Shown here: in pieces, positions 35,001 through 51,899 of the stretch | Position numbering within the stretch: position 1 is the stretch's first letter | Layout of the letters: each line of letters opens with the position of its first letter | Source of the DNA: Malacoraja senta | Taxonomy: Eukaryota | DNA: 64,000 nt | Direction of reading: 5' to 3' | Assembly (NCBI GenBank): GCA_038087875.1 | Contig: CM075995.1 | Span: forward strand, 9,240,001-9,304,000 | Made by a program: the position numbers and the translations under genes | The notes under the pieces: generated by a model | Told to the model about the DNA's origin: nothing | Database searches by the model: none | Seen by the model: only the letters and a program-made list of their open reading frames with translations

Positions 35001-38000
35001 AGACTGACTTCATCCATTTCACCACTTACTTTCATCCTGCACTCAAATTCACCTGGACCATTTCCGACATCTCCCTACCGTTTCTAGACCTCACTATCTC
35101 CATCGCAGACTACTGACCGACATCTACTACAAACCCACTGACTCCCACGGCTATCTGGACTACATTTCTTCCCATTCTGCTTCCTGTAAGGACTCCATCC
35201 CCTACTCCCAATTCCTCCATCTACACCGCATCTGCTCCCAGGATGAGGCGTTCCACACCAGGGCATCGGAAATGTCCTCATTCTTTAGGGAACGGGGGTT
35301 CCCCTCTTCGACTATAGACGAGGCTCTCACCAGGGTCTCTTCTATATCCCATAGCTGCGCTCTCACTCCCCATCCCCCCACTCGTAACAAGGGCAGAGTC
35401 CTCCTTGTCCTCACCTTCCACCCCACTAGCCGTCACATACAACACATAATCCTCCGACATTTTCGCCACCTCCAACGGGATCCCACCACTGGCCACAATT
35501 TCTCATCTCCTCCCCTTTCGGCTTTTCCGCAGAGACCGCTCCCTCCGTCCCTGGTCAATTTGTCCCTTCCCTCCCAAACCAGCCCCTTCCCGGGTACTTT
35601 CCCTTTCCCTCGCAGGAAATGCAACACTTGTCGCTTTACCTCCCTCCTTGACTCCATCCAAGGACCCAAACAGTCTTTCCAGGTGAGGCAGAGGTTCACT
35701 TGCACCTCCTCCAACCTCATCTATTGCATCCGCTGCTCTATGTGTCAACTGCTCTACATCGGTGAGACCAAGCGTAGGCTTGGCGATCGCTTCGCCCAAC
35801 ACCTCCGCTCAGTTCGCATTAACCAACCTGATCTCCCGGTGGCTCAGCACTTCAACTCCTCCTCCCATTCCGAATCCAACCTTTCTGTCCTGGGCCTCCT
35901 CCATGGCCAGAGTGAGTCCCACCGTAAATTGGAGGAGCAGCACCTCATATTTCGCTTGGGTAGTTTACACCCCTGCGGTATGAACATTGACTTCTCCAAT
36001 TTCAGGTAGTCCCTGCTTTCTCCCTCCTTCCCCTCCCCTTCCCAGCTCTCCCTCAGCCCACTGTCTCCACCTCTTCCTTTCTTCTTCCCGTCCCCCCCCC
36101 CACCCCCACATCAGTCTGGAGAAGGGTCTCGACCCGAAACATCGGCCCACCAAGTCCATGCCGACCATCGATCACCAGTTCATAATAGTAATAATATATT
36201 GTAATAATAACATGATCACACTTTTGCATCCACTCCCTACACACTTGGGGAAATTTACAGTGACCAATTAACTTAGAACCCTCTCGTATTGGGATGTAAG
36301 CCAGTATCTGTAGTTCCTTCATACACATCCCAACTTCTATGCTCAATTCCCTGACTGATAAAATCAGCATACCAGTTCAGTTTCCCAGTTCAGTTTAGTT
36401 TATTGTCACGTGTACAGTGAAAAGCTTTTGTTGCATGCTATCCTGTCAGCGGAAAGACAATACATGATTACAACAGAGCCACTTTACAGTGTACAGATAC
36501 ATGATAAGGGAATAACATTTAGTGCAAGGTAAAGCCAGCAAATTCCGATCAAGGATAGTCCGAGGGTCACCAACAAGGTAGCTAGTAGTTCAGGACCGCT
36601 TTCTAGTTGGTGATAGGATGGTTCAGTTGCCTGATAACTGCCGGGAAGAAACTGTCCCTGAATCTGGAAGTGTGCATTTTCACACTTCTGCACCTCTTGC
36701 CTGATGGGAGAGGGGAGAAGAGGGAGTGGCCAGGGTGTGACTGGTCCTTGATTATGCTGCCGGCCTTGCCGGGGCAGCGCGAGGTGTAGATGGAGTCAAT
36801 GGAAGGGAGGTTGGTTTGTGTGACGGTCTGGGCTGCGTCCACAATTTGCTGCAATATCTCGTGGTCTTGGATGGAGCTGTTCCCAAACCGTGCTGTGATG
36901 CTTCCCGACAAAATGCTGACTGGTGCATCTGTAGAAGTTGGTGAGAGTTGGTGAGAGTTGTAGGGGACATGCCAAACTTCCTGAACCTTCACCTTTCCCA
37001 TGGCACGGTGACCAAAACTGGGCTGGGAGAATGCAACCTTCACGTGGTCCACCCTGTTTCGACTAATGCAATCTACCCGACGTGCATAAACAAGACCAGA
37101 TAGTACAAGTTGACCCACAACTTTAGGCTGTGCACGCCATACGCAAGAAGAAGAAGATGACCAAAAACTGAACACAATGCTTCCACTGTGGCCCCACCAG
37201 CACCTTATACAACTGTCACATTTTATATCACGTTGGTGCCAGGCATATGTAAGACCATCAGCTGACACTCTGCGGACTACATTCTCAAGAGATTGATTCA
37301 CCTCTGATCCGTGACTTTCCAATAATTTCAACATGTTTTCATGTTCTGACCAAATATCCAAATTAAAATGTAATGGTCCATCTGAGAAACGAAACAGTTT
37401 GGGAGCTGTTTTGCAATGGCTCCATGAACAGGCAATTAGACAGGGACAGCAACTCTTTGAAATTGTTTTGTGTGGGACTGCATCAAGTATATTAACCGTG
37501 AAAGGGCACAAATGCCTGATTTCTTAAGGCAGGTGTTCTGGGAATTGAAGATTCATCTTCAACTGCACGGAGGCTCGGTGGCACAGCGATACAGTTGCTG
37601 CCTTACGATCACAGCGCCAGAGACACGGGTTCAATCCTGACTACGGGTCTGTCTGAATGAAGTTTGTACCTTCTCCCCGTGACCTCACGGGTTTGCCCCA
37701 AGATCTCCGGTTTCCTCCCACACTCCAAAGACGTTCAGGTTTGTAAGTTAATTGGCTTGGTACGAATGTACAAAAATATTGTCCCTAGTGTAGGATAGTG
37801 TTGATGTGCGGGCATCGCTGGTCAGTGCAGACTTGGTGGGCCGAATGGCCTGTTTCTGCGCTGTATATCTTAACTAAAATTAATTATTATGTCAAAAGGA
37901 TGAAGGAAGGGGTCTGAAGAAGGGTCCCGACCCGAATTATCACCTGTCCATGTTCTGCATGGATGTTGCCTGATCCGATGAGTTCACTTTAGACTTAGAA

Positions 38001-41000: not shown

Positions 41001-44000
41001 AATAATTTGTGCATTCACCCATTTCACCAAAAAGTTGCCCATCAGGTTCCTATTAAATCTTAAGAAGGTACAGGAGCCTGAAGACTGTAACGTCCAGGTT
41101 CAGGAATAGCTACTTCCCCACAGTCATCAGGCTATTAAACACAACGAATAAGCTCTGAGCTCTGAACTGTAAAAGACTATATTATTATTATTAGTTATTT
41201 GTGCTATATTTGTCATTTATTGAACTTTTTCTTTTTTTCCCCGTTATATACATTGTTTACATATTGTGTTGTGCTGCAGCAAGTAAGAATGTCATTGTCC
41301 CATCCAGGACATATGACAATGAAACACTCTTGACTCTTTCCTCTCTCACCTTAAATCTATGTCCTCTGGTTCTTGATTCCTCTACCCTGAGCATTTCCCC
41401 GATCTATTCCTCTCATGATCTTGTACACCTCTATAAGATCACCCCTCAGCCTCCTGCGCTTCAACGAATAAAACCCTAGCTTGCTCAACCTCTCCCTGTA
41501 GCTCAGGCACGCGAGTCCAGCCTAGTTTAGTTTAGGTTATTCTCACGGGTGGCAAGGTACAGCGAACAGTTTTTGTTGTGCGCTAACCAGTCAGTGGAAA
41601 GATTACAATCAAGCTGTCCGCAGTGTACTGAAGCAGGATAAAGGGAATAATGTTTAGTGCAAGATAAAATCCAGTATAGTCTGATTAAAGACAGTCCGAA
41701 GGTCCCCACTAAGGTAGATGGCTGTCACGGTGGCGCAGCGATAGAGTTGCTGCCTTACAGCAAAATTCAGCGCTGGAGACCCGGGTTCCATCCCGACTAC
41801 GGGCGCTCTCTGTATGGAGTTTGTACGTTCTCCCCGTGACCTGCGTGGGTTTTCTCCGGGTGCTCCGGTTTCCTCCCACACTCCAAAGACGTGCAGGTTT
41901 GTAGGTTAATTGGCTCGGTGTAAATGTAAAAAAAATTGTCCAGTATAAAATTGTCCGTTCCAGTGCTGAGTGATGATCTACCTAGAGCTTTTCAGCGTAC
42001 TACATCCACATCCAGCTCAGGGCCGCTCTCTAGTTGGTCATAGGATGGTTCAGTTGCCTGATAACAGCTGGGAAGAAGCTGTCCATGAATCTGGAGGTGT
42101 GCGTTTTCACACTTCTGTACCTCTTGCCCGGCAATATCATAGAGTTATAGAGAATCTTACAGTGTGGATACAGGCCCTTCGGCCCAACTTGCCCACACCA
42201 GCCAACCTGTCCCATCTATGCTAGACCCTGCGTTTGGCCCGTATCCCTCTAAAGCTGTCCTCTCCATGAGCCTGTCTAAATGTTTCTTAAACTTTGCAAT
42301 AGTACCAGCCTCAACTACCTCCTCTGGCAGCTCATTTCTACAACCCTTTGTGTGGAAAAAGTTATCCCTCGGATACATTAAATCTTTGCCCCTTCACCTT
42401 AAACCCATGTCCTCTGGTCCTCGATTCCCCGACTCTGGGCAAGAGACTCTGTGCATCTACCCGATCTATTCCTCTCATGATTTTGTACACCTCTAGAAGA
42501 TCCCTACCTCGTCCTCCTACGCTCACAACCTGCTCACGTTCTCCCCAAAGCTCAGATCCCCCACATCCTTGTAATTCTCTGCACCCTAATCCCTGCAAAT
42601 CTCTGCATTTTTTCCACCACTTTCCTGCATTGCTGAGTGTTTCCAGCACTGTGTGCTTATGCTTATCTTTCTGAATTTCATCACTGACATTTTCTCATTT
42701 AACTTTACTTCGCTATGGGCAGCCCTGGTGAGCAAAGTCTAGTGCCCTCTGCTGTTACATGCTGCTCATGGTGTCAGGGGTTATGGGGAGAAGGCAGGAG
42801 AATGGGCTTAGAAAGGAGAGATAGATCAGTCATGATTCAATGGTAGACAGAAATGCTGGAGAAACTCAGCGGGTGAGGCAGAATCTATGGAGCGAAGGAA
42901 TAGGCGACGTTTCGGGTCGACACCCTTCTTCAGACTGATGTGGGGGTGGGGGGGGAGGGAAGAAGAAAGGAAGAGGCGGAGACAGTGGGCTGTGGGAGAG
43001 CTGGGAAGGGGAGGGGAAGGAAGGAGAAAGCAGGGACTACCTGAAATTGGAGAAGTCAATGTTCGTACCGCTGGGGTGTAAACTACTCAAGCAAAATATG
43101 AGGTGCTGCTCCTCCATTCACTCTGGCCATGGAGGAGGCCCAGGACAGAAAGGTCGGATTCGGAATGGGAGGGGGCGTTGAAGTGCTGAGCCACCGGGAG
43201 ATCAGGTTGGTTATTGCGAACCAAGCGGAGGTGTTGGGCGAAGCGATCGCCAAGCCTACTTGGTCTCACCGATGTCATGATTCAATGGTGGAGTAGACCT
43301 GATGGGACAAATGGCCTAATTCTGCACTTTTTAGTTACGAAGTTCTGCTCTCACAATCTTATATACCTCTACCCAGGTTGCCCTTCAACCTCCAACTTTC
43401 CAGATAAAACAAGCCAAAATTGTTCAACCTCTTACAGTTTATAAATACCCTCTAATCCAGGCAGCATTCGGGTAAAACTCCCCTGCACCCTCTCCAAAGC
43501 AGCCACACCCTTCCTGTAATGGGGTGCCCACAACTACACGCAATATTCCAAACGTAGCCAAACCCAAGTCCTGACTCCTTTACTCTAAGCAAACATATCA
43601 TTCCTCCTTCTTTACAATTCTCTCTGCTTGTGTTGCCACTTTCAGGGATCATCTGTGTTACGCAGTTTAGACTTTAGTGGGCCTCTTTGCCCTCCGAGTC
43701 CGCGCCGTCCAGCGATCACCCTGTACACTAGAACTATCCTACACACCAGGGACAATTTACAATTTTACCGAAGCCAATTAACCTGCAAACCTGCACGTCT
43801 TTGGAGTGTGGGAGGAAACCGGAGCGCCCGGAGAAAACCCACGCAGGTCACGGGGAGAACGTGCAACCTCCGTAGAAACAGCACCCGTAGTCAGGATCGA
43901 ACCCGGGTCTCTGGCGCTGGGAGGCAGTAATTGGAGCGGCCATCACACAGCCCAGGGTTGTGATGGGCTAAACTGGAATTTAGAAGGATGAGAGGCAATC

Positions 44001-47000
44001 CCATTGAAACATATAAGATTGTTAAGGGCTTGGACACGCTAGAGGCAGGAAACATGTTCCCGATGTTGGGGGAGTCCAGAACCAGGGGCCACAGTTTAAG
44101 AATAAGGGGCAAGTCATTTAGAACGGAGACGAGGAAACACTTTTTCTCACAGAGAGTTGTGAGTCTGTGGAATTCTCTGCCTCAGAGGGCGGTGGAGGCC
44201 GGTTCTCTGCATGCTTTCAAGAGAGAGTTAGATAGGGCTCTTAAAAATAGCGTAGTCAGGGGATATGGGGAGAAGGCAGGAACGGGGTACTGATTGGGGA
44301 TGATCAGCCATGATCACATTGAATGGCGGTGCTGGCTGGAAGGGCCGAATGGCCTACTCCTGCACCTATTGTCTATTGTCTGTCCCAGCTACGATCCCAA
44401 TTACCAGCCGTCTGTGTGGACTTTGTACCTTCTCCCTGTGGCTCTGTGGGAGTTTTCTATGGGCGCTCCCGTTTCCTCCCACACTTCAACGTGCAAACTC
44501 CACACACACAGAGCACCCAAGGTCAGGATCGAACCCGGTTCTCTGGCGCTGTGTGGCAGCAGCTCTACCCGCTGCACCATTGTGTCACCCCAATTTGTAT
44601 AAATGGACGAGGAAACAAAGAACTACAGATGATAGACACAAAGTGCTGGTGTAACTCAGCGGGTTAGGCAGCATCTCTGGAGAAAAATGGTGGGTGACCT
44701 TTAAGTCCGGGACCCTTTTTCAGAATCAAAAATAGATGCTTGATAATCAATAGACAATAGGTGCAGGAGTAGGCCATTCGGTTCAGTTCAGTTTCAGTTG
44801 AGTTTACTGTCACGTGTACCGAGGTACAGTGACAACCTTCTTGCTCGCTAACCAGTCAGTAGAAAGACAATACATGATTACAATCGAGCCATTCGCAGTG
44901 TACAGATACATGATAAGGGAATAACATGATCACATTGAATGGCGGTGCTGGCTCGAAGGGACGAATGGCCTACTCCTGCACCTATTGTCTATTGTCTAAT
45001 AATGTTTAGTGCAAGGTAAAGTCCGATCAAATATAGTCCGAGGATCCCCGATGAGGTAGATAGTAGTTCAGGACCGCTCTCGGGTTGGTGGTAGGATGAT
45101 TCAGTTGCCTGATAACAGCTGGGAAGAAACTGTCCCTGAAACTGGAACTTGATGTTCGGCGAGCACTCAGTGGGTTGCAGAGCCCATTTTCACGCTGTGT
45201 CTTTCTGACTGTATGGCAAATAAAGTGGTCTGGGCTCTCGTGAATGTGAAATGCAAGGTGTAACTGTGGTTCTTCCTTGCTTCTCGTTGCAGCACACCAT
45301 GGTACTGCCGCTGGTCCTGTTGGAACTCTTCATCTCCCAGCACCGGTATCCAACACGAAGAACTGGACTCCTCATCCTGGGGACCGTCTCCATCTCTTAT
45401 CTACTTTGGTAGGGACTGCGCGAAGGCACAGAAACGATACGCAGGTCCACCACCTAATTTACAGCACCCTTGGTTCCAGAACCTTGCCGGACCAACAGTG
45501 GTCACGGCCTCCGAGATACCGGCCCATAGAGTCGGTCTCGGGAACGGATCTGCCGGCTCCGGCCTCGGCCCCGGCCGCAGGGTGGGGGGGGGGTGCATAT
45601 TCCACCCGCCGATCGGTCGCGGAAGTCCCTATGAGGTCGAGATCGACCGGTCGCCTCTCCCGGCCTAGGGGACACATTTCCGGTGGGACTTTTGTAATTT
45701 TGTCCAGATTAAAGGAGGTGCCGGACTACCAGTTACTGGACCTTGTGGTGGACCTGGTATGGACACCATTACATGGTGATGTTGAAATCTCTAATCACTG
45801 CAATCCCTGCACATGGAGTCGTACAGTGTGAAAACAGGCCCTTTGCCCACTGGGTCCACGCGGCCACAGGGAGAATGTGCAAACTCCACACAGACAGCAC
45901 CCGTAGTCAGGATCGAACACAGGTCTCTAATGCTATGAGGCAGCAGCTCTACCCGCTGCATCACTGAGCCGCCCCAATGTTGGTATGGTAAAAATGATCT
46001 AGTAATGGTGACCGAGTTGTGGCATCACCTGATGGTCAGATCACTTACTGCCGATCCCTCGTCAGTGGTTACGAGGACTGTCGCGTGACGTCATGGGTCA
46101 AGGGGAGTGTCCGGCTACATCAGCAGATCTTACCTTGAGATCACCAGTCAACAGGTAACTGAGCCCGAGTCAACACCCTCGCTCGCTCAGCGGCAGCAGC
46201 AATGATTCAATAGTCAGAGAATCCCAAACGCACATGTATGGCAAACTTATCTCACCCAATAAAGTATCCGTTTGATCACAAAGTTTGGACTGGCTCAAAG
46301 TCACCATTGCTGTGGAACCATTCCAGAGGTCTATCTAATCTTTTCCTGTCCACCACAGTATAATTATTTATGAACATTCTTCTGCCCACCCAATTAATCT
46401 TTATATAATCATCTTCCACATATTTCTTCAGTCAGAGGGTGGTGAATCTGTGGAATTCATTGCCCCAGACAGCGGTGGAGGCCAAGTCAATGGGTATTTT
46501 TAAGGCAGAGATAGATAGATTGTTGATTAGTACGGGTGTCAGGGGTTATGGGGAGAAGGCAGGAGAATGGGGTTGAGGGGGAATGATAGATGATTGACTG
46601 GTGGAGTAGATTTGATGGGCTGAATGGCCTAATTCTGCTCCTAGAACATATGAACCTTTGAAACCCCCATGGTCAATCCTTTTCAAATGATTTTATTGGG
46701 GGGGTCCGTTTTCCTAACACAGGAGACCACGTTAGGTCTTGTGAATGCTTAGTTCTTGTCGAAGTTAAAGTCATGGAGTCATTGAGATTGATGAAGGTGG
46801 GCCAGTGGATGTTGTGTAAATGGATTTTAGTCAGGCTTGTGATAAGATCCTTCACGGTAGGCTGATCCAAACTGTGTTAAGGGCCTGTCCCACTTGGGCG
46901 ACCTAATCCGCGAGTTCTGGTGAGTTTGCCCTCGAATCCAGAACCAGGGGCCACAGTTTAAGAATAAGGAGTAAGCTATTTAGAACGGAGACAAGGAAAC

Positions 47001-50000
47001 ACCTTTTCACACAGAGAGTGGTGAGTCTGTGGAATTCTCTGCCTCAGAGGGCGGTGGAGGCAGGTTCTCTGGATGCTTTCAAGAGAGAGCTAGATAGGGC
47101 TCTTAAAGATAGCGGAGTCAGGGGATATGGGGAGAAGGCAGGAACGGGGTACTGATTGGGGATGATCAGCCATGATCACATTGAATGGCTCGAAGGGCCG
47201 AATGGCCTACTCCTGCACCTATTGTCTATTGTCTATTGACTCATACTCGCAGCATGGTTGACACGGGGTCGTAGGAGGTCTTCGTAACTCTCCTTCATGC
47301 TCGAGAGGTCTTCGTAACTCTCCTTCATGCTCCGCGAACTCGAGGCCTCAGCTAGGTCGCGGCGTTTTTTCAATATGTTAAAAAAAGCCCGCGAGTAAAA
47401 AAAGGTCGCCATGGAAAAAATCTATACTTTTTTTACTCGTAGGTTTAGTCATAATAGGTCGTAGCAGGTCGTAGCAGGTCACCATGTTAGTCATAGGTAA
47501 TCGAGGGTAGTCGAAGATAGTCGTAGATAGTCTTCATCATAGTCGAAGGGAGGTCAAAGGGAGGTCGAAGGAGGTCGTCTTCACTCTCCACTATTTGGCG
47601 TCCAATTTTCCCGAAGTTAGTCGAAGCTGGTCTTCAACATAGTCGAAGGAGGTCGAAGGAGGTCTTCAACATGTCATTTTTTCAAACTCTTCTAACCTCG
47701 CCAATTAGGTCGCCCAAGTGGGACAGCCCCTTAAGATGTATGGGATTCACAATGACTTGGGGGTGGAAGATTGCAACCTTCACGTGGTCCGCCCTGTTTC
47801 AACGAATGCAATCAACCTGGCGTGTACAATCAAATCAGATCAAATCCTACAACTTTAGGCTGTGCACGCCATAAGCAGGAAGAAGACAATGACTTGGTCG
47901 TATGGATCTGGAACTGGCTTATTCATAGAAGACAGAGGGTTGGGGTGGAAGGTAGATATTCAGGCTGCAGGTCTGTGACCAGTGGAGTTCCACACACATC
48001 TGTGCTGGGACCTCTGCTGTTTGTGATATATATATAAATGACTTGGACTTAAATGAAAATGGGGTGCTGAGTAAGTTTGCTGATGACACCGAAGTTGGAG
48101 GAGTTGCAGGCAGTGAGGAATGCTGTCAGAAAGTACGCGGTAATGGGCAGAGAAATGGCAGATGGAGTTTAACCCGGTTCTCGGGATACTTTCAAGAGAG
48201 AGCTAGATAGGGCCCTTAAAGATAGTGGAGTCAGGGGATATGGGGAAAAGGCAGGAACGGGGTACTGATTGGGGATGATCAGCCATGATCACATTGAATG
48301 GCGGTGCTGGCTCAAAGGGCCGAATGGCCCACTCCTGCACCTATTGTCTATTGATACACAGAAACCCCAACTAGTTATCAGTTTTGGAATTCCTCGTATG
48401 TTACAAAACATACTTGGCAAATAAAGCACTATTCTGATTCTGTTTCTGATGTGCAGGGAGGAACTGCAGATGCTGGTTTAAACCGGTTAGACACAAAAAG
48501 CTGGAGTTTTTCAGCGGGACAGGCAGCATCTCAGGAGAGAAGGAATGGGTGGTGTTTCGGGTCGAGATCAGTCTGAAGAAGGGTCTTGACCCGAAAGGTC
48601 ACCCATTCCTCACCAGAGATGCTGCCTGTCCCGCTGAGTTACCCCAGCATTTTGTGTCTACCATCAGTTTCTGATGATATGATGAAGACAGAGGGTTGGG
48701 GTGGAAGGTAGATATTCAGTTTCTGATGATATGATGAATTAATCAGACAAGATGCCTTCTGTTTCATACAGGGTTCTGTGGATTTATTACGCAGCTGGAG
48801 ACTGGGTCTATCCATTGCTGGGACTTTTTAATCAAACTGGCCTGGTGGTGTTTTTCTCATTCAGCCTTCTGTTGGTAATGCTTTTATACTTCCTGGGAGA
48901 GCAGCTCACCTTGTTAGTGTGGGGTGAGTAATTATTCACTTTCGTTTTGTTAAATTTGTGATACAGCGTGGAAACATCAGGCCCTTCAGGCCACCGGGTC
49001 CGCGCCGACCAGCGATTTACAGTTATTTACAAAGCTGTACGTCTTATGAGTGTTGGAGGAATCCGGAACTCCCGGGGGAAAACCCACGCAGGTCACGGGG
49101 AGAACGTACAAACCACGTACAGACAGCACCCGTAGTCAGGATCGAACCCGGAACCAAGAAAACAGGGTTAACACAGGATTACATGGTGGTGCAGCGGGTA
49201 GGCCTGCTGCCTCACAGCGTCGATCTTGACTACGGATGTTGTCTGTACGGAGTTCGTGCGTTCCCCCTGTGACCACGTGGGTTTTCTCCGGGTGCTCCAG
49301 TTTCCTGCCACATCCCAAAGACCTGTGGATTCGTAGGTTAATTTAGACTTTAAAGATACAGTGCAGAAACAGGCCCTTCGGCCCACCGAGTCGGTGCCGA
49401 CCAGCGATCACCCTGTACCCCACCACTATCCTACACACTCAGGACAATTTATCATTTTTATGCTGCAAACCTGCACGTCTTTGGAGAAAAAAACCTCTAA
49501 TTAAATAAAACCAGAAAACTATTCTCCATCCTGAAACCGTTCCAGGGTTTAGTTTAGAAATACAGCGCGGAAACCGGCCCTTCAGCCCACTGAGTCCGTG
49601 CCGACCAGCGATCGCCCCGTACGTACACTAGTTTAGTTTAGAAATACAGCGCGGAAACAGGCCCTTCAGCCCACTGAGTCCACGCCTACCAGTGATCGCC
49701 CCGTACACTCGCACTATCCTAAACACTAGGGATTAACATTTATACAGAAGCCAGTTAACCTACAATCCTGCACGTCTTTGGAGTGTGAGAGGAAACCGGA
49801 CCTTCCGGTGAAAACCCACACAGTCACAGGGAAAAAGTACAAACTGCGCGCAGACAGCACCCGTAGTCAGGATCGAACCCGGGTCGCTGGCCGCTGTGAG
49901 GCAGCAGCTCTACCCGCTGCGCCACCATGCTGCCCAAGGAGGTTAACCAGAATGATGCCCAGATTAGGGGGGTATTATCTACAATTAGGGGGTGAACAGA

Positions 50001-51899
50001 CATGGGTTGTTTCCTCTGGAACATTAGAAGTTGTGGGGGAGGACCTGATGGAAGTATATAACATGATGAGAGGCATAGATAGGGTGGACAGTCAGAACCT
50101 TTTCCCCAGGGTGGAAATATGAAATACTAGAGGACATAGCTTTAAGGTGAGAGGGGCAAGGTTTAAAGGAGATAGATGTGTGGGGCAGGTTTATTACACT
50201 GAAGGTGGTGGGGGCCTGGAGCGTGCTGCTAGTGTTGGCGATGGAGGCAGATATAATTGTCTGTGTCTGTGTCTGTGTCTGTGTCTGTGTCTGTGTCTGT
50301 GTCTATATCTGTGTCTGTGTCTGTGTCTGTGTCTGTGTCTGTGTCTGTGTCTGTGTCTATGTCTGTGTCTGTGTCTGTGTCTGTGTCTGTGTCTATATCT
50401 GTGTCTGTGTCTATATCTGTGTCTGTGTCTGTGTCTGTGTCTGTGTCTGTGTCTGTGTCTATATCTGTGTCTGTGTCTGTGTCTGTGTCTGTGTCTGTGT
50501 CTGTGTCTGTGTCTATGTCTGTGTCTGTGTCTGTGTCTGTGTCTATATCTGTGTCTGTGTCTATATCTGTGTCTGTGTCTGTGTCTGTGTCTGTGTCTGT
50601 GTCTGTGTCTAATCTGTGTCTGTGTCTGTGTCTATATCTGTGTCTGTGTCTGTGTCTGTGTCTGTGTCTGTGTCTGTGTCTGTGTCTGTGTCTGTGTCTG
50701 TGTCTATATCTGTGTCTGTGTCTGTGTCTGTGTCTGTCTATAATCTGTGTCTGTGTCTGTGTCTGTGTCTGTGTCTGTGTCTGTGTCTATAATCTGTGTC
50801 TGTGTCTGTGTCTGTGTCTATGTCTGTGTCTAGTGGTGTTTCAGCCTTTGGATCAGCAGGGAATGATGGATATGGAACATGTGCAGCTGTTAAGAGATGA
50901 TCTCTGACACAGACATTATGTTCCCCTGCTGTACTGTTCTAGGTTCTATGTTTTATGTTCTACCTCCTCTGGCAGCTCATTCCATTCACCCACTACCCTC
51001 TAAGTGGAAAGGTTGCCCCACAGGTTCCTATTAAATCATTCCCCTCTCACTTTAAACCTATGCCCTCTAGTTTTAGATTCCCCTACCCTGGTATAAAGAC
51101 TTTATGGGATCACCTTATCGATTCCACTTATGATTGTACACACTCTATAAGATCACCCCTCATCCTCCTGCACTCCATGAAATAGAGTCCTAGCCTGCTC
51201 AACCTCTCCCTGTAGCTCAGGTCTCCGAGTCCTGGCAGCATCCTCCTAAATCTTCTCTGCACCCATTCCAGCTTCTTTGACCTTGACCATCGACCACTAT
51301 TAGATATTTCACAATTTCTCGTGCTTGTAACAATTATGAAACAATACTGACTAATAGACACTCAAGAAACTGCAGATGCTGGTTTGCTACAAAAGGACAG
51401 AGTGCTGGAGTAACTCAGCGGGTCAGGCAGCATCTGTGGACAACATGGATAGGTGACGTTTCACAGAGTGCTGGAGTAACTCAGCGGGTCAGGCAGCATC
51501 TGTGGAGAACATGGATAGGTGACGTTTCACAGAGTGGTGGAGTAACTCAGCGGGTCAGGCAGCATCTGTGGAGAACATGGATAGGTGACGTTTCACAGAG
51601 TGCTGGAGTAAGATGATAGGACAGGTTACGAGGGATATAAGCCAAAATGGAGCTTAGATTGCAATCATGAACTAATTGATTGAGGAGCAGAGTTGGAAGG
51701 GGTGGAGGGACCACCCAGATCTTATGTTGCTGCGTTCCTACACAGCAGGCCCGTGGGACTAGTGTAGATGGGACATGTTGGTTGGTGTGAACAAGTTGGG
51801 CCGAAGGGCCCGTTTTCACACTGTATGACTCTATGACACCAATCAACCATTTATATCTGTTTCTTTTCAGGTTTAACAGGAAAAGCAAAGAGATCATAA
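22934..51899 (+). CDS. ADTRP: ADTRP-like (AIG1/ADTRP family multi-pass membrane Thr-hydrolase), spliced CDS join(22934..23089,32385..32501,34865..34966,45293..45408,48772..48923,51871..51899), 223 aa
   Basis: Six exons with AG/GT boundaries and compatible phases (0,0,0,2,1) sum to 672 nt, open to TAA. Motifs WKYLTFLNL, RDLFFSVLVFPVGT, WVNHAVHT, HRYP, WVYP and LGEQL match the AIG1/ADTRP family. The N-terminal FH...WY pattern favours ADTRP over AIG1 (recalled sequences). Confidence 0.9.
27485..29268 (-). mobile_element. CR1 LINE fragment, decayed (ADTRP intron 1)
   Basis: Consecutive RT ORF pieces 28611..29204, 28303..28581, 28012..28221, 27639..27914. Confidence 0.93.
30795..32055 (-). mobile_element. 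CR1 LINE fragment (ADTRP intron 1)
   Basis: ORF 30938..31861 RT motifs; (AGACAAT)n tail. Confidence 0.93.
32385..32501 (+). CDS. ADTRP: ADTRP coding exon 2: FLQMIFNGLCILSDIQKQASWILCLRDLFFSVLVFPVGT
   Basis: ttgttccctag| acceptor, ACT|gtaagt donor, 117 nt, phase 0-0. Confidence 0.9.
32640..32891 (-). mobile_element. Possible solo LTR (about 250 bp)
   Basis: Minus strand starts TGTAGTGG, is CpG-rich, has AATAAA about 65 nt before a CA end; no clean TSD. Confidence 0.45.
33901..34707. mobile_element. Tc1/mariner-pogo (Tigger-like) MITE interrupted by CR1 pieces
   Basis: TA|CAGGTCAACCACTGATTTTCCAGCA ... TGCCGGAAAGTCACTGGTGGACCTG|TA. Confidence 0.75.
34865..34966 (+). CDS. ADTRP: ADTRP coding exon 3: FVVASFWILFTLDRSLVYPEALDKFIPLWVNHAV
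   Basis: gtccttttcag| acceptor, GTG|gtaagt donor, 102 nt. Confidence 0.93.
35015..36142 (+). mobile_element. Penelope-like element fragment (RT C-terminus plus GIY-YIG)
   Basis: FLDL..TDIYYKPTDSHGYLDY and NLIYCIRCSMCQLLYIGETKRRLGDRF; ends in a degenerate hammerhead core at 36116. Confidence 0.92.
36385..36990 (-). mobile_element. Rex1/Babar-type 3' end, representative of a multi-copy family (also about 5905-6380, 18530-18870, 24750-24975, 41525-42130, 44780-45145, 55425-56067)
   Basis: LPSIDSIY..RC..KA..IIKD.SHPG.SLF..LPSGKR...RFRDSFFPAVIRQLN; (TAAAC)n tail. Confidence 0.8.
37020..37073 (+). ncRNA. Minimal HDV-like ribozyme, family A (slightly decayed)
   Basis: Same register as 47760. P1 GGGCTGG/CCACCCT (1 mismatch), P2 GAATGCA/TGCAATC (1 mismatch), P3 ACC/GGT, L3 TTCACGT, J4/2 CTAA. 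Confidence 0.75.
37020..37157 (+). mobile_element. 138-bp ribozyme-headed, GAA-tailed retroposon (family A)
   Basis: TSD tgaccaaaa(a)ctg at 37009 and 37158; tail aagaagaagaaga; homologous to the 47760 copy. Confidence 0.85.
38000..38680 (-). mobile_element. CR1 LINE 3' fragment
   Basis: ORF 38107..38655. Other short CR1 3' ends at about 4983-5270, 7933-8332, 23685-24210, 25695-26145, 40097-40478, 43970-44380 and 56876-57410. Confidence 0.9.
39172..39697 (-). mobile_element. Penelope-like 3' fragment (second subfamily); further fragments at 42843-43273 and 54025-54590
   Basis: TKRRLGDRFTEHLRSV...VAKHFN motif plus terminal repeat. Confidence 0.85.
45293..45408 (+). CDS. ADTRP: ADTRP coding exon 4: HTMVLPLVLLELFISQHRYPTRRTGLLILGTVSISYLL(W)
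   Basis: ttctcgttgcag| acceptor, TTG|gtaggg donor, 116 nt; first codon is His126. Confidence 0.92.
45442..45756. mobile_element. Tigger-like MITE, inverted relative to 33901-34707
   Basis: TIR CAGGTCCACCAC...GTGGTGGACCTG; internal blocks are reverse complements of 34445-34690. Confidence 0.7.
46018..46357 (+). mobile_element. Possible solo LTR (340 bp)
   Basis: TGTGG...CCACA termini, perfect CRE TGACGTCA at 46086, AATAAA at 46258; no TSD found. Confidence 0.4.
46881..47730. mobile_element. Non-autonomous DNA transposon (Harbinger- or Kolobok-like) containing a nested CR1 3' end (about 46936-47238)
   Basis: TTAA|GGGCCTGTCCCACTTGGGCGACCTAAT ... ATTAGGTCGCCCAAGTGGGACAGCCCC|TTAA; a related end at about 58010-58032. 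Confidence 0.85.
47760..47813 (+). ncRNA. Minimal (P4-less) HDV-like self-cleaving ribozyme, family A
   Basis: P1 GGGGTGG/CCGCCCT (first pair G.U), P2 GATTGCA/TGCAATC, P3 ACC/GGT, L3 TTCACGT, J4/2 CGAA with putative catalytic C47803. Confidence 0.85.
47760..47885 (+). mobile_element. 126-bp ribozyme-headed, GAA-tailed non-autonomous retroposon (family A)
   Basis: TSD acaatgacttg(g) at 47749 and 47886; tail ggaagaag; inserted in an old CR1 fragment. Confidence 0.85.
48772..48923 (+). CDS. ADTRP: ADTRP coding exon 5: VLWIYYAAGDWVYPLLGLFNQTGLVVFFSFSLLLVMLLYFLGEQLTLLVW(G)
   Basis: tttcatacag| acceptor, GGG|gtgagt donor, 152 nt, phase 2-1. Confidence 0.92.
50259..50831. repeat. (TGTGTC)n hexamer microsatellite with TATATC variants
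   Basis: About 570 bp array read directly. Confidence 0.98.
51397..51611. repeat. 66-bp tandem repeat (about 3.2 copies) derived from Penelope terminal repeat
   Basis: Units start at 51401, 51467, 51533 and 51599. Confidence 0.92.
51871..51899 (+). CDS. ADTRP: ADTRP last coding exon: (G)LTGKAKRS*
   Basis: Strong acceptor tctgtttcttttcag|, phase 1, short basic C-terminal tail ending in TAA. Confidence 0.78.

What the first reader, a model, noticed from the sequence alone, without database searches (positions are those of the whole stretch)
47749..47897. 126-bp retroposon whose 5' end is an intact 54-nt minimal HDV-like ribozyme, on the sense strand of ADTRP intron 4
Seen: P1 47760-66 GGGGTGG pairs with 47789-95 CCGCCCT, starting with a G.U wobble. 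P2 GATTGCA/TGCAATC and P3 ACC/GGT are perfect, L3 is TTCACGT, then GTTTCAA and CGAA with no P4. The 11-12 bp TSD ends right at the first G of P1, and the element ends in GAA repeats. Known: HDV-like ribozymes cleave immediately 5' of a G.U-opened P1, use a catalytic C in J4/2, tolerate loss of P4, and process the 5' ends of R2, RTE and Ingi/L1Tc retrotransposons. Inference: a SINE-like element with no Pol III head that releases its own 5' end from read-through transcripts. It could cut ADTRP pre-mRNA about 1 kb upstream of exon 5, like the intronic CPEB3 ribozyme.
Basis: partly seen in the sequence, partly recalled or inferred. Interest (0 to 1): 0.92.

Follow-up and report, generated by a model that had tools for sequence, protein, structure and literature searches.

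The report
Self-cutting RNA heads a skate retroposon
A roughly 140-base jumping element, present in thousands of copies in a skate genome, starts exactly at the cutting site of a stripped-down HDV/CPEB3-type self-cleaving RNA, which probably trims the element out of host transcripts before it is copied back into DNA.

Summary
Positions 47760-47885 are a 126-bp retroposon copy with a 12-bp target-site duplication (TSD) and a GAA tail. It lies on the sense strand of intron 4 of an ADTRP-like gene of a skate.

Its first 54 nt fit the HDV-like double pseudoknot:
- P1 of 7 bp opened by G.U, P2 of 7 bp and P3 of 3 bp;
- L3 TTCACGT and J4/2 CGAA;
- no P4.

It belongs to a family of about 140 bp. 6,983 genomic sites keep an exact 18-mer of the ribozyme core. 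52 of 61 inspected copies have their own TSD ending at the first G of P1.

Rfam scores the element below threshold (CPEB3 model, 18 bits against 35). The same genome, however, holds 39 matches above threshold, up to 64 bits. Some of these sit at the exact 5' end of a 3.1-kb LINE that encodes an endonuclease and a reverse transcriptase and also ends in a GAA tail.

Across the three families, 10 of 18 pairs change on both sides while L3, P1.1 and the catalytic C stay fixed.

Best reading: a non-autonomous retroposon made of a minimal ribozyme plus a 3' stem-loop. Cleavage itself is untested, the RNA-seq data show no 5'-end pile-up, and the partner LINE is not proven. This is a new variant of a known kind.

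The parts
47749..47760 (+). 5' copy of the target-site duplication ACAATGACTTGG; its last G is also the first G of P1
   Evidence: automatic TSD search, (window_47760: 12 nt, offset +1)
47760..47813 (+). 54-nt P4-less HDV/CPEB3-type ribozyme fold. P1 47760-66/47789-95; J1/2 47767-68; P2 47769-75/47807-13; P3 47776-78/47786-88; L3 47779-85; P1.1 C47781-G47796; linker 47797-47802 in place of P4; J4/2 CGAA 47803-06 with the presumed catalytic C47803. Predicted cleavage is between 47759 and 47760.
   Evidence: (the three HDV-type Rfam models are the only matches in 86 nt, all below gathering score)
47814..47878 (+). 3' domain: outer stem GGCGTGTACA (47819-28) with TGTGCACGCC (47861-70). This copy has lost 12 bp, the 5' half of an inner hairpin, after 47850.
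   Evidence: The intact domain (L027:1555-1640) folds at -23.9 kcal/mol, z = -4.0, 0 of 200 shuffles as stable
47879..47885 (+). (GAA)n tail, short in this copy
   Evidence: all aligned copies end in AAGAAGAAG-type repeats of variable length
47886..47897 (+). 3' copy of the target-site duplication ACAATGACTTGG
37020..37157 (+). Second, older copy of the same family (subfamily B, J4/2 CTAA) in intron 3, sense strand. TSD TGACCAAAACT (37009-19) and TGACCAAAAACT (37158-69). One mismatch in P1 and one in P2.
45293..45409 (+). Coding exon 4 of the host ADTRP-like gene
   Evidence: tblastn of P0001, (95% identity)
48770..48925 (+). Coding exon 5 of the host ADTRP-like gene (Far-17a/AIG1 domain)
   Evidence: PF04750, E 5.7e-9; 96% identity to a protein named ADTRP-like from Amblyraja radiata

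Best explanation
The element is one copy of a short non-autonomous non-LTR retroposon family of a skate. The family has only two working modules.

1. The 5' module is a 54-nt minimal (P4-less) HDV-like ribozyme of the CPEB3 type.
2. The 3' module is a branched stem-loop followed by a (GAA)n tail.

Proposed mechanism:
- Copies have no promoter of their own and are transcribed as parts of host transcripts such as introns.
- The ribozyme cuts immediately 5' of its first G. This frees an RNA that starts exactly at that G, whatever lies upstream.
- A LINE reverse transcriptase that accepts the stem-loop and GAA tail copies the RNA into a new site by target-primed reverse transcription. This produces 8-14-bp TSDs and a full-length 5' junction.

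The ribozyme type is shared with a 3.1-kb endonuclease/reverse-transcriptase LINE of the same genome. That LINE carries the P4-bearing form at its exact 5' end and also ends in (GAA)n.

Shown here: the anatomy, the family, the TSDs, the position of the 5' ends, the related ribozymes and their covariation.
Inferred: self-cleavage, read-through transcription as the source of template RNA, and which LINE supplies the enzyme.
For: 1. Family and 5' end.
- The own-genome search gave 1,961 first-look candidates, of which 40 were scored. Nearly all begin at query position 11-13, which is 47759-61.
- 60 of 63 BLAST hits in the fetched DNA cover the whole 140-nt family sequence.
- 52 of 61 copies have a TSD, mean 11.6 nt. 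It ends at G1 in 18 copies, overlaps the first Gs in 18, and stops 1-3 nt short in 16.
- Exact-18-mer counts sum to 6,983 sites.

2. Fold.
- All of P1, P2, P3, L3 and J4/2 are in the canonical order.
- The descriptor matched 0 of 200,000 anchored shuffles. The background is 3 hits in 699,342 nt.
- The only Rfam matches in 86 nt are CPEB3 (18.2 bits, E 0.0058), HDV-F-prausnitzii and HDV.

3. Relatives.
- Rfam RF00622 run on the genome gave 60 listed matches. 39 are over the 35-bit cut-off, and the best scores 64.2 bits.
- In three fetched copies the similarity starts at the ribozyme's first base while the flanks are unrelated.
- One copy is 3,135 bp long, with an 11-bp TSD and a (GAA)n tail. 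It has an Exo_endo_phos domain starting about 100 nt from the 5' end and an RVT_1 domain (E 1.3e-31).
- Three further ribozyme/tail pairs lie 3.1 kb apart on one strand.

4. Covariation across the retroposon, a second P4-less family (L101) and the LINE.
- 97.2% of 144 cells are paired, against 32-46% when the partners are slid.
- 10 of 18 pairs change on both sides: 3 in P1, 5 in P2 and 2 in P3.
- The covariation score is 0.593 against 0.123 or less. 0 of 500 shuffles reach it.
- L3, P1.1 and the J4/2 C are invariant.

5. Constraint in source elements.
- The four common polymorphisms inside the ribozyme lie in J1/2, the linker, the base after the catalytic C, and a U.G to U-A switch.
- Mean minor-allele fraction is 0.030 at paired positions against 0.092 in the rest of the element.
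- At the catalytic CpG, C>T occurs at 328 sites against 649 for G>A. At a control CpG near the tail the counts are 646 and 615 (Fisher p = 6e-17).

6. No Pol III head.

7. Literature.
- P4-less HDV-like ribozymes are known, and theta ribozymes self-cleave in vitro (passages of 10.1101/2023.06.13.544163).
- The design of a ribozyme plus the 3' end of a LINE is known from R2 SIDEs (passages of PMC3414825).
Against: - No cleavage assay exists for this copy or the family.
- Rfam scores for the element itself are below every gathering threshold (18.2 against 35, 14.4 against 44, 13.0 against 50). They were not reported at all when 2.5 kb was searched.
- The nested MFE fold is no better than shuffles (z = 0.04).
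- Within the family there is no pair with changes on both sides.
- In the one raw RNA run laid (polyA, coded X24), no place was reported where many molecules begin or end. 165 reads run through 47760 into unlike upstream sequence. Many copies are therefore seen uncleaved, or as antisense RNA or DNA; the table does not split these by strand.
- No LINE was found that carries this exact ribozyme or this 3' stem-loop.
- The ribozyme-bearing LINE found shares only the tail repeat and a short pre-tail motif. Its 3' end is not strongly folded (z = +1.41).
- The covariation rests on only three lineages.
- The CpG asymmetry can be explained by one propagating G>A lineage. It shows tolerance at G rather than need for C.
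Confidence: 0.75

Rival explanations
1. Fossil ribozyme. The 5' module was inherited from a LINE 5' end, but the family no longer needs it. The RNA 5' end at G1 is set by an internal promoter or initiator, as Pr77 does in L1Tc. The fold persists only because the family is young.
For: - There is no compensatory change within the family.
- Copies are 86-100% alike.
- No start pile-up was reported at 47760, and many read-through reads cross it.
- In L1Tc/NARTc the same first 77 nt are both promoter and ribozyme (abstract start of PMC3383444 in the listing).
Against: - Three subfamilies that differ widely in the centre keep the ribozyme. Their few differences fall at fold-neutral positions.
- C>T at the catalytic C stays at background level, while its CpG partner and the next base vary as subfamilies.
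- No promoter motif was identified.
Confidence: 0.15
2. Classical Pol III SINE with an unrecognised internal promoter. The pseudoknot match would then be incidental to a degenerate tRNA-like head.
For: - The element is short and has a LINE-like tail.
- GTTTCGA in the common variant loosely resembles a B box. This consensus is recalled from memory and comes from no call.
Against: - ARAGORN found no tRNA-like gene in 47600-48000.
- Rfam gave no tRNA, 7SL or 5S match at E up to 10.
- No A-box-like motif is present.
- The A variant of the linker, which this copy carries, removes the B-box-like word.
Confidence: 0.04
3. This particular copy has been taken over by the host as a regulator of ADTRP-like splicing, as proposed for the intronic CPEB3 ribozyme.
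For: - The copy is in the sense strand of an intron.
- Its ribozyme is identical to the subfamily A form, and it lies 1.0 kb upstream of the next exon.
Against: - It is one of thousands of similar insertions and still has a perfect 12-bp TSD, which points to a recent insertion.
- It has lost part of its 3' domain by a deletion of the kind also seen in other copies.
- No orthologous conservation could be tested.
- There was almost no RNA depth on the unique flanks.
Confidence: 0.03
4. Chance resemblance to the HDV fold.
For: The Rfam scores are below threshold.
Against: - 0 of 200,000 anchored shuffles match the descriptor.
- The match sits at the one base that is the 5' end of the retroposon.
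- L3, P1.1 and J4/2 are identical to those of relatives that pass Rfam's threshold, and the helices covary.
Confidence: 0.01

Closest known systems
R2 SIDEs and R2/R1 hybrid SIDEs of Drosophila (PMC3414825, passages read)
   Same: Both are non-autonomous non-LTR elements built only from a 5' HDV-like ribozyme and 3' sequences bound by a LINE's machinery. Both are processed out of a co-transcript and are not Pol III SINEs.
   Different: SIDEs are rDNA-site-specific, low in copy number, carry a full-size R2 ribozyme and show sequence identity to known R2/R1 partners. The skate family is dispersed in genes and repeats, has thousands of copies and a P4-less 54-nt ribozyme, and no partner with sequence identity was found.
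NARTc/SIDER elements sharing the Pr77/L1TcRz ribozyme with L1Tc in trypanosomatids (PMC3383444 and PMC4035085: titles and abstract starts from the listing only)
   Same: An HDV-like ribozyme occupies the first bases of both the autonomous LINE and its short derivatives, and the elements are dispersed.
   Different: In trypanosomatids the short and long elements share the same 77-nt sequence, which is also a promoter. Here the short element and the LINE share the ribozyme type and core, but every helix differs in sequence and P4 is missing.
HDV-like ribozymes at the 5' end of RTE and other non-LTR clades (Ruminski et al. 2011). That paper is not held; it is cited through a passage of PMC3774820 and from memory.
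   Same: The 3.1-kb LINE found here (endonuclease domain, then reverse transcriptase, with a microsatellite tail) has the ribozyme at its exact 5' end, with cleavage at the junction.
   Different: RTE membership of the skate LINE was judged only from its size and layout, not from a tree. Its ribozyme scores as CPEB3-type in Rfam at 57-64 bits.
Mammalian CPEB3 ribozyme (Rfam RF00622; PMC10919898, passages read)
   Same: The L3 letters, the G-U after P1 and the CGAAU of J4/2 are the same as in the Rfam consensus printed. Both lie in the sense strand of an intron. The LINE form shares an 18-base identical block with the consensus.
   Different: CPEB3 is a single-copy, conserved mammalian locus with a P4. 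The element here is multi-copy and young, lacks P4, has different P1/P2/P3 sequences, and scores 18 bits against a threshold of 35.
Minimal (P4-less) HDV-like ribozymes from metagenomes, and theta ribozymes of gut phages (10.1101/2023.06.13.544163, passages read)
   Same: Both have the double pseudoknot without the P4 domain.
   Different: Those come from microbiome or phage sequences and, for theta ribozymes, sit next to tRNAs. This one heads a vertebrate retroposon, where its role (5' processing) can be read from the insertion junctions.

Membership tests
HDV-like (delta) self-cleaving ribozyme fold | Nested double pseudoknot: P1, P2 and P3 in canonical order, with the cleavage site 5' of the first base of P1 | tested here: met
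   (descriptor); 97.2% of cells paired against 32-46% for slid partners.
HDV-like (delta) self-cleaving ribozyme fold | G.U wobble closing P1 at the cleavage site | tested here: met
   G47760 with T47795. 56 of 61 copies have G-T at this pair.
HDV-like (delta) self-cleaving ribozyme fold | P1.1 between L3 and the bases just after the P1 3' strand | tested here: met
   C47781-G47796 is C-G in 61 of 61 copies and in 8 of 8 rows of A1. The second position is U with U, the same letters as in the Rfam CPEB3 consensus.
HDV-like (delta) self-cleaving ribozyme fold | Catalytic C in J4/2 directly before the P2 3' strand | tested here: met
   C47803 in CGAA. It is invariant across the three families (C44). 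Its catalytic role is not testable here.
HDV-like (delta) self-cleaving ribozyme fold | P4 helix | tested here: not met
   Five bases (TTCAA) stand where the LINE form has a helix of about 24 nt. P4 is absent from the described minimal forms, so this fits the minimal subclass rather than excluding the fold.
HDV-like (delta) self-cleaving ribozyme fold | Compensatory base changes supporting the helices | tested here: met
   Between families, 10 of 18 pairs change on both sides. Within the family, none does.
HDV-like (delta) self-cleaving ribozyme fold | Site-specific self-cleavage giving a 5'-OH product | not testable with these tools
   No assay was possible. RNA-seq showed no start pile-up at 47760, which is not decisive.
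Rfam RF00622 CPEB3 ribozyme | Score at or above the gathering threshold of 35 bits | tested here: not met
   18.2 bits for the window copy and 17.5 for L027. 39 other loci of the genome do pass.
Rfam RF00622 CPEB3 ribozyme | Single conserved locus in an intron of CPEB3 of mammals | tested here: not met
   The element is multi-copy, lies in an ADTRP-like intron, and the host is a skate.
Non-autonomous non-LTR retroposon (SIDE/SINE-like) | Target-site duplications of variable sequence flanking each copy | tested here: met
   52 of 61 copies, mean 11.6 nt.
Non-autonomous non-LTR retroposon (SIDE/SINE-like) | Simple-repeat 3' tail of the type used by a LINE in the same genome | tested here: met
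   (GAA)n in all aligned copies. (GAA)n also ends the 3.1-kb LINE.
Non-autonomous non-LTR retroposon (SIDE/SINE-like) | Sequence identity of its ends to an autonomous partner | tested here: inconclusive
   No LINE with this ribozyme half (77 matches genome-wide, 30 inspected) or with this tail 18-mer (145 matches) was found. Only the ribozyme type, the tail repeat and a short pre-tail motif are shared.
Classical SINE | Pol III head derived from tRNA, 7SL or 5S | tested here: not met
   ARAGORN found 0 genes. No such Rfam match appeared at E up to 10.

The most novel reading that the evidence does not exclude
CPEB3-type ribozymes are an old vertebrate LINE 5'-processing module. In this skate they still head an active-looking 3.1-kb LINE and have been stripped down to 54 nt in a mini-retroposon that has seeded thousands of copies, many of them inside introns. 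On this reading the single-copy mammalian CPEB3 ribozyme, and possibly the HDV ribozymes said to resemble it, descend from an exapted insertion of such an element. They would not have arisen de novo.
Probability: 0.3. Interest if true: 0.85.

Novelty: new variant of a known kind. Interest (0 to 1): 0.72.

Why it matters
- It gives minimal P4-less HDV-like ribozymes a readable job in a eukaryote. The insertion junctions of thousands of copies mark the cleavage site.
- It shows how small a mobile element can be: 54 nt for 5' processing plus about 70 nt for reverse-transcriptase recognition.
- It places ribozymes that pass Rfam's 'mammalian CPEB3' model at the 5' ends of LINEs of a cartilaginous fish. 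This makes the origin of the CPEB3 ribozyme testable by comparative genomics.
- If the copies are active, many sense-strand intronic insertions could cut host pre-mRNAs. That would be a natural experiment on how ribozyme speed and splicing interact.

Tried and rejected
- Notes of this scan: nothing by place or by sequence.
- The look-up of sequencing runs: no RNA holder listed. Only one raw RNA run was offered.
- The lay of X24, X1, X6 and X18 showed that the family is present in runs under four organism codes. It gave no locus-specific reads and no 5'-end signal.
- Partner LINE sought through the ribozyme 3' half followed by non-family sequence. There were 77 matches genome-wide. I inspected 30 loci, and all were family copies with indels or insertions. 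The other 47 were judged only from their printed 30-mers.
- Partner LINE sought through the tail 18-mer with a non-family upstream. There were 145 matches, 100 of them listed. The recurrent upstream strings are a third subfamily, deletion variants and one local cluster.
- Variant strings seen (TGCGCCC) turned out to be mutated family copies. The pattern was mis-specified: its last letter selected a mutant class.
- The LINE 3' end folded no better than shuffles.
- Pfam found nothing on the CR1-like ORF fragments next to the element.
- Rfam at gathering threshold over the whole window gave 0 matches.
- Literature: HDV-like + ribozyme + skate gave 0 papers. With 'shark' there were 2 papers, neither on this. 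Wider searches found no description of such a family. The library lacks most subscription journals, and Ruminski 2011 is not held.
As a result the LINE's clade and the diversity of the other ribozyme families remain open.
Full report
What is at the coordinates

- The repeat ACAATGACTTGG stands at 47749-60 and again at 47886-97.
- Between the two lie 126 bp that begin with GGGGTGG and end in GAAGAAG.
- In the first 54 bases, GGGGTGG (47760-66) pairs with CCGCCCT (47789-95). There is a G.U pair at the 5' end and one internal U.G.
- GATTGCA (47769-75) pairs perfectly with TGCAATC (47807-13). ACC (47776-78) pairs with GGT (47786-88) around the loop TTCACGT.
- CGAA (47803-06) stands directly before the 3' strand of P2. 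Five bases occupy the place of P4.

It is a retroposon family

- A search of the window's own 1.94-Gb assembly gave 1,961 first-look candidates. The 40 that were scored are 83-92% identical. Nearly all begin at query position 11-13, which is 47759-61, and end at 137-139.
- A second query, the older copy at 37020-37157 in the same window, brought 30 more loci.
- In the fetched DNA, 60 of 63 BLAST hits cover the whole 140-nt family sequence.
- In an alignment of 61 copies, each copy has its own flanks.
- An automatic search found a TSD in 52 of the 61, with a mean length of 11.6 nt. It ends exactly at the first G of P1 in 18 copies, overlaps the first one to four Gs in 18, and stops one to three bases short in 16.
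- The window copy lacks 12 bp of the centre; the family length is about 138-140 bp.
- Whole-genome exact counts of an 18-mer spanning the linker, J4/2 and P2 3' strand are 3,908 (CGAA), 2,098 (CTAA), 649 (CAAA) and 328 (TGAA). The total is 6,983, with 0 for the reversed control pattern. This is a lower bound on copy number.

Is the fold more than chance?

- The nested part alone is not special by energy. The MFE is -12.6 kcal/mol with z = 0.04. P1 plus P3 evaluate to -12.4 kcal/mol, and the P2 duplex adds about -7.4.
- Rfam gave no HDV-type match when 2.5 kb was searched, and the whole window gave nothing at gathering threshold.
- On 86 nt, the only three matches are the three HDV-type models. 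They are co-linear with the proposed helices, but all are below threshold: CPEB3 18.2 bits (E 0.0058), HDV-F-prausnitzii 14.4 and HDV 13.0. The intact copy L027 gives the same picture. By itself this would not survive correction for the size of the window.
- I wrote a topology descriptor requiring: G at +1; a 7-bp P1; a 3-bp P3 with a 6-9-nt loop abutting P1; a 6-7-bp P2; and C-G/T-A-A before the P2 3' strand.
- Anchored at the first base, the descriptor matched 0 of 200,000 shuffles.
- Scanned over 699,342 bases of window and loci, it hit 53 family copies and 3 other places. A shuffled control gave 2.
- The retroposon's 5' end is a single, independently defined position, so a chance coincidence is very unlikely.

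Relatives in the same genome

- Running Rfam's CPEB3 model over the assembly gave 60 listed matches. 39 are over the 35-bit gathering score. The 14 best score 50.6-64.2 bits and span 79-89 nt.
- Four of these were fetched and re-scored at 64.2, 63.8, 61.3 and 43.7 bits.
- Three of them (L098-L100) are copies of one repeat. Their similarity begins at the ribozyme's first base, and the upstream flanks are unrelated.
- Their ribozyme has a P4. It shares with the Rfam consensus an 18-base identical block covering the end of P2, P3 and L3.
- About 100 nt downstream an ORF begins with an Exo_endo_phos domain (E 2.5e-5, just over the cut-off). An 801-bp stretch from the middle is an open RVT_1 segment (E 1.3e-31).
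- The copy on contig C1 ends 3,135 bp from its first base in AAGAAGAAGAAG. This is followed by ACAGAACAAAA, the same 11 bases that precede its 5' end. This copy carries an in-frame stop near the ORF's end.
- Its last 28 bases occur 209 times in the genome at up to 2 mismatches.
- Three more ribozyme hits have such a tail 3.1 kb downstream on the same strand.
- The genome therefore holds a LINE of about 3.1 kb, RTE-like in size and layout, that is terminated by a ribozyme and ends in (GAA)n. I did not test its clade by phylogeny.
- The fourth locus (L101) is a different repeat with a P4-less ribozyme that still passes the threshold. Its core 23-mer occurs 14 times.

Covariation

- Within the retroposon family there is essentially none. 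1,070 of 1,098 cells are paired, and only one pair shows two standard types (U.G in 33 copies, U-A in 23). No pair changes on both sides.
- Between families the picture is clear. The alignment has eight sequences: four retroposon copies from three subfamilies, L101, and three LINE copies. It falls into register, with the P4 of the LINE as one insertion.
- For the structure P1/P2/P3/P1.1, 97.2% of 144 cells are standard pairs, against 32-46% when the 3' partners are slid by 1-3 columns.
- 10 of 18 pairs change on both sides: 3 in P1, 5 in the pseudoknot helix P2, and 2 in P3.
- The covariation score is 0.593, against at most 0.123 for slid partners. 0 of 500 shuffles reach the observed pairing or score.
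- L3, the G-T after P1, and the C and A-A of J4/2 are invariant.
- Only three lineages are involved, so the number of independent events is small. The slid controls, which keep relatedness, show that the signal belongs to this register.

Signs of constraint in the source elements

- The subfamilies differ most in the centre. Subfamily C replaces the inner hairpin by a different one.
- Inside the ribozyme the four common polymorphisms are at J1/2 (47767), at the U.G to U-A pair (47791), in the linker (47801) and at the base after the presumed catalytic C (47804).
- Mean minor-allele fraction is 0.030 at paired ribozyme positions, 0.074 at unpaired ones and 0.092 in the rest of the element.
- C47803 and G47804 form a CpG. 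Genome-wide, the C>T product occurs at 328 sites and the G>A product at 649 (binomial p = 5e-25).
- At a control CpG next to the tail, the two products occur 646 and 615 times (p = 0.40). Fisher's test between the two sites gives p = 6e-17.
- The simplest reading is that elements changed at G, to A or T, went on to make copies, while elements changed at C did not. This is suggestive, not proof.

The 3' module and the partner

- The intact 3' 86 nt fold into an 11-14-bp outer stem with an inner 7-bp hairpin, followed by a short single strand and the tail. The MFE is -23.9 kcal/mol, z = -4.0, and 0 of 200 shuffles are as stable.
- Searches for a LINE carrying either this ribozyme or this 3' end found only family variants.
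- The ribozyme-bearing LINE shares with the retroposon the tail repeat, a TSD of the same length, and a short motif just before the tail. Its 3' end is otherwise unrelated and not strongly folded.
- Which enzyme moves the retroposon is therefore open.

Host gene and organism

- The ORF at 48743-48931 matches Pfam Far-17a_AIG1.
- Its closest named relative is 'androgen-dependent TFPI-regulating protein-like' of Amblyraja radiata, at 96% identity. Other hits come from rays and a catshark.
- That protein maps to six + strand exons of the window at 90-100% identity.
- The organism is therefore a skate or a close relative. The element is in intron 4 and the older copy in intron 3, both on the sense strand.

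RNA data

- In the one raw RNA run offered (polyA, paired, coded X24), 655 reads were laid at 90% likeness or more.
- They cover the element at about 90-180 per orientation. The unique flanks have 0-3, so these reads come from other copies.
- 98% of what was laid runs on into unlike sequence.
- 165 reads cross 47760 into diverse upstream sequence. No place was reported where many molecules begin or end.
- Much family RNA in polyA+ material is thus part of longer transcripts and is not visibly cut. The table does not separate sense from antisense, and ordinary libraries under-sample exact 5' ends, so this is weak evidence against efficient cleavage.
- Contigs of runs under three other organism codes also hold the family.

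Mechanism

Shown:
- a dispersed family with TSDs, a (GAA)n tail and a uniform 5' end;
- that 5' end is the predicted cleavage site of a fold whose helices covary with bona fide CPEB3-type ribozymes of the same genome;
- one of those ribozymes heads a LINE.

Inferred:
- copies are transcribed by read-through;
- the ribozyme cuts 5' of G1 regardless of upstream sequence;
- the freed RNA is recognised through its 3' stem-loop and GAA tail and is reverse-transcribed to its very 5' end.

I put this at 0.75. The main rival, at 0.15, is that the fold is an inherited relic and the 5' end is an initiation site.

Comparison with known systems

- The logic is that of the R2 SIDEs. [quoted passage not shown] It is also the logic of NARTc/SIDER in trypanosomatids (listing and abstract starts only).
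- Ribozymes at the 5' junction of RTE, R4 and L1-clade elements are cited in PMC3774820 (passage). The primary paper is not held. I recall its abstract as saying that HDV-like ribozymes serve LINEs and hammerheads serve SINEs in some organisms. If that recollection is right, the present family would be an exception.
- P4-less HDV-like ribozymes were first found in metagenomes with unknown function, and theta ribozymes cleave in vitro (10.1101/2023.06.13.544163, passages).
- The CPEB3 ribozyme is described as mammalian (PMC10919898, passages).
- I found no paper that joins HDV-like ribozymes with skates (0 papers). No paper found or 80 describes this family. The library is incomplete.

Verdict

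It is a new variant of a known kind: ribozyme-terminated non-LTR elements and their internally deleted derivatives.

It is notable for four things:
- the minimal ribozyme;
- the very small size of the element;
- the copy number in a vertebrate;
- the close likeness of the associated LINE ribozyme to the mammalian CPEB3 model.

Self-cleavage, the in-vivo 5' end chemistry, the partner enzyme and any effect on the ADTRP-like gene remain to be tested.

Noticed in passing
G000:C1:217550496-217553636 (loci L099, L103, L102); also L098, L100: A full-length LINE copy of about 3.1 kb with a P4-bearing CPEB3-type ribozyme (Rfam RF00622, 57-64 bits) at its exact 5' end. It has an Exo_endo_phos domain and an RVT_1 domain, a (GAA)n tail and an 11-bp TSD. 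This copy carries an in-frame stop near the ORF's end. Its 3' 28-mer occurs 209 times in the genome at up to 2 mismatches.
   Followed up: partly
L101 (G000:C13:8596080-8596144, minus strand) and 13 other sites listed: A second P4-less CPEB3-type ribozyme family that passes Rfam's threshold (43.7 bits). Its P2 is GGAAAGA/TCTTTCC and its J4/2 is CCAA. What follows it was not identified.
   Followed up: partly
window 47219-47735: Another high-copy repeat directly upstream of the element, built from GTCGAAGG / AGGTCTTC-like units. Its depth in the laid runs is very high between 47650 and 47733 and stops at about 47735.
   Followed up: no
window 46907-47155 and 47938-48210 (also 43964-44293, 46409-46576): Fragments of a CR1-like LINE. 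These include ORF ends reading ...SLWNSLPQRAVEAGSL..FKRELDRAL.. and a reverse-transcriptase piece reading ..SGVP..SVLGPLLF.IYINDL. Pfam gave no match at E up to 0.1 for the three pieces tested.
   Followed up: partly
window 50230-50800: A long dinucleotide-type microsatellite. The ORF listing shows runs of CLCLCL, TDTDTD and SVSVSV.
   Followed up: no
L091 (G000:C2:126552998 plus strand and 126553407 minus strand): Two copies of the retroposon in inverted orientation about 400 bp apart. They share private changes in P1 3', the linker and P2 3'. This may be a local duplication or a small sublineage.
   Followed up: partly
G000:C1:229135564-229230970 (five sites listed): Five identical tail-bearing fragments (ACAAAGGTTGTGC followed by the family's 3' stem) within 100 kb. 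They look like a segmental or tandem duplication that contains a rearranged copy.
   Followed up: no
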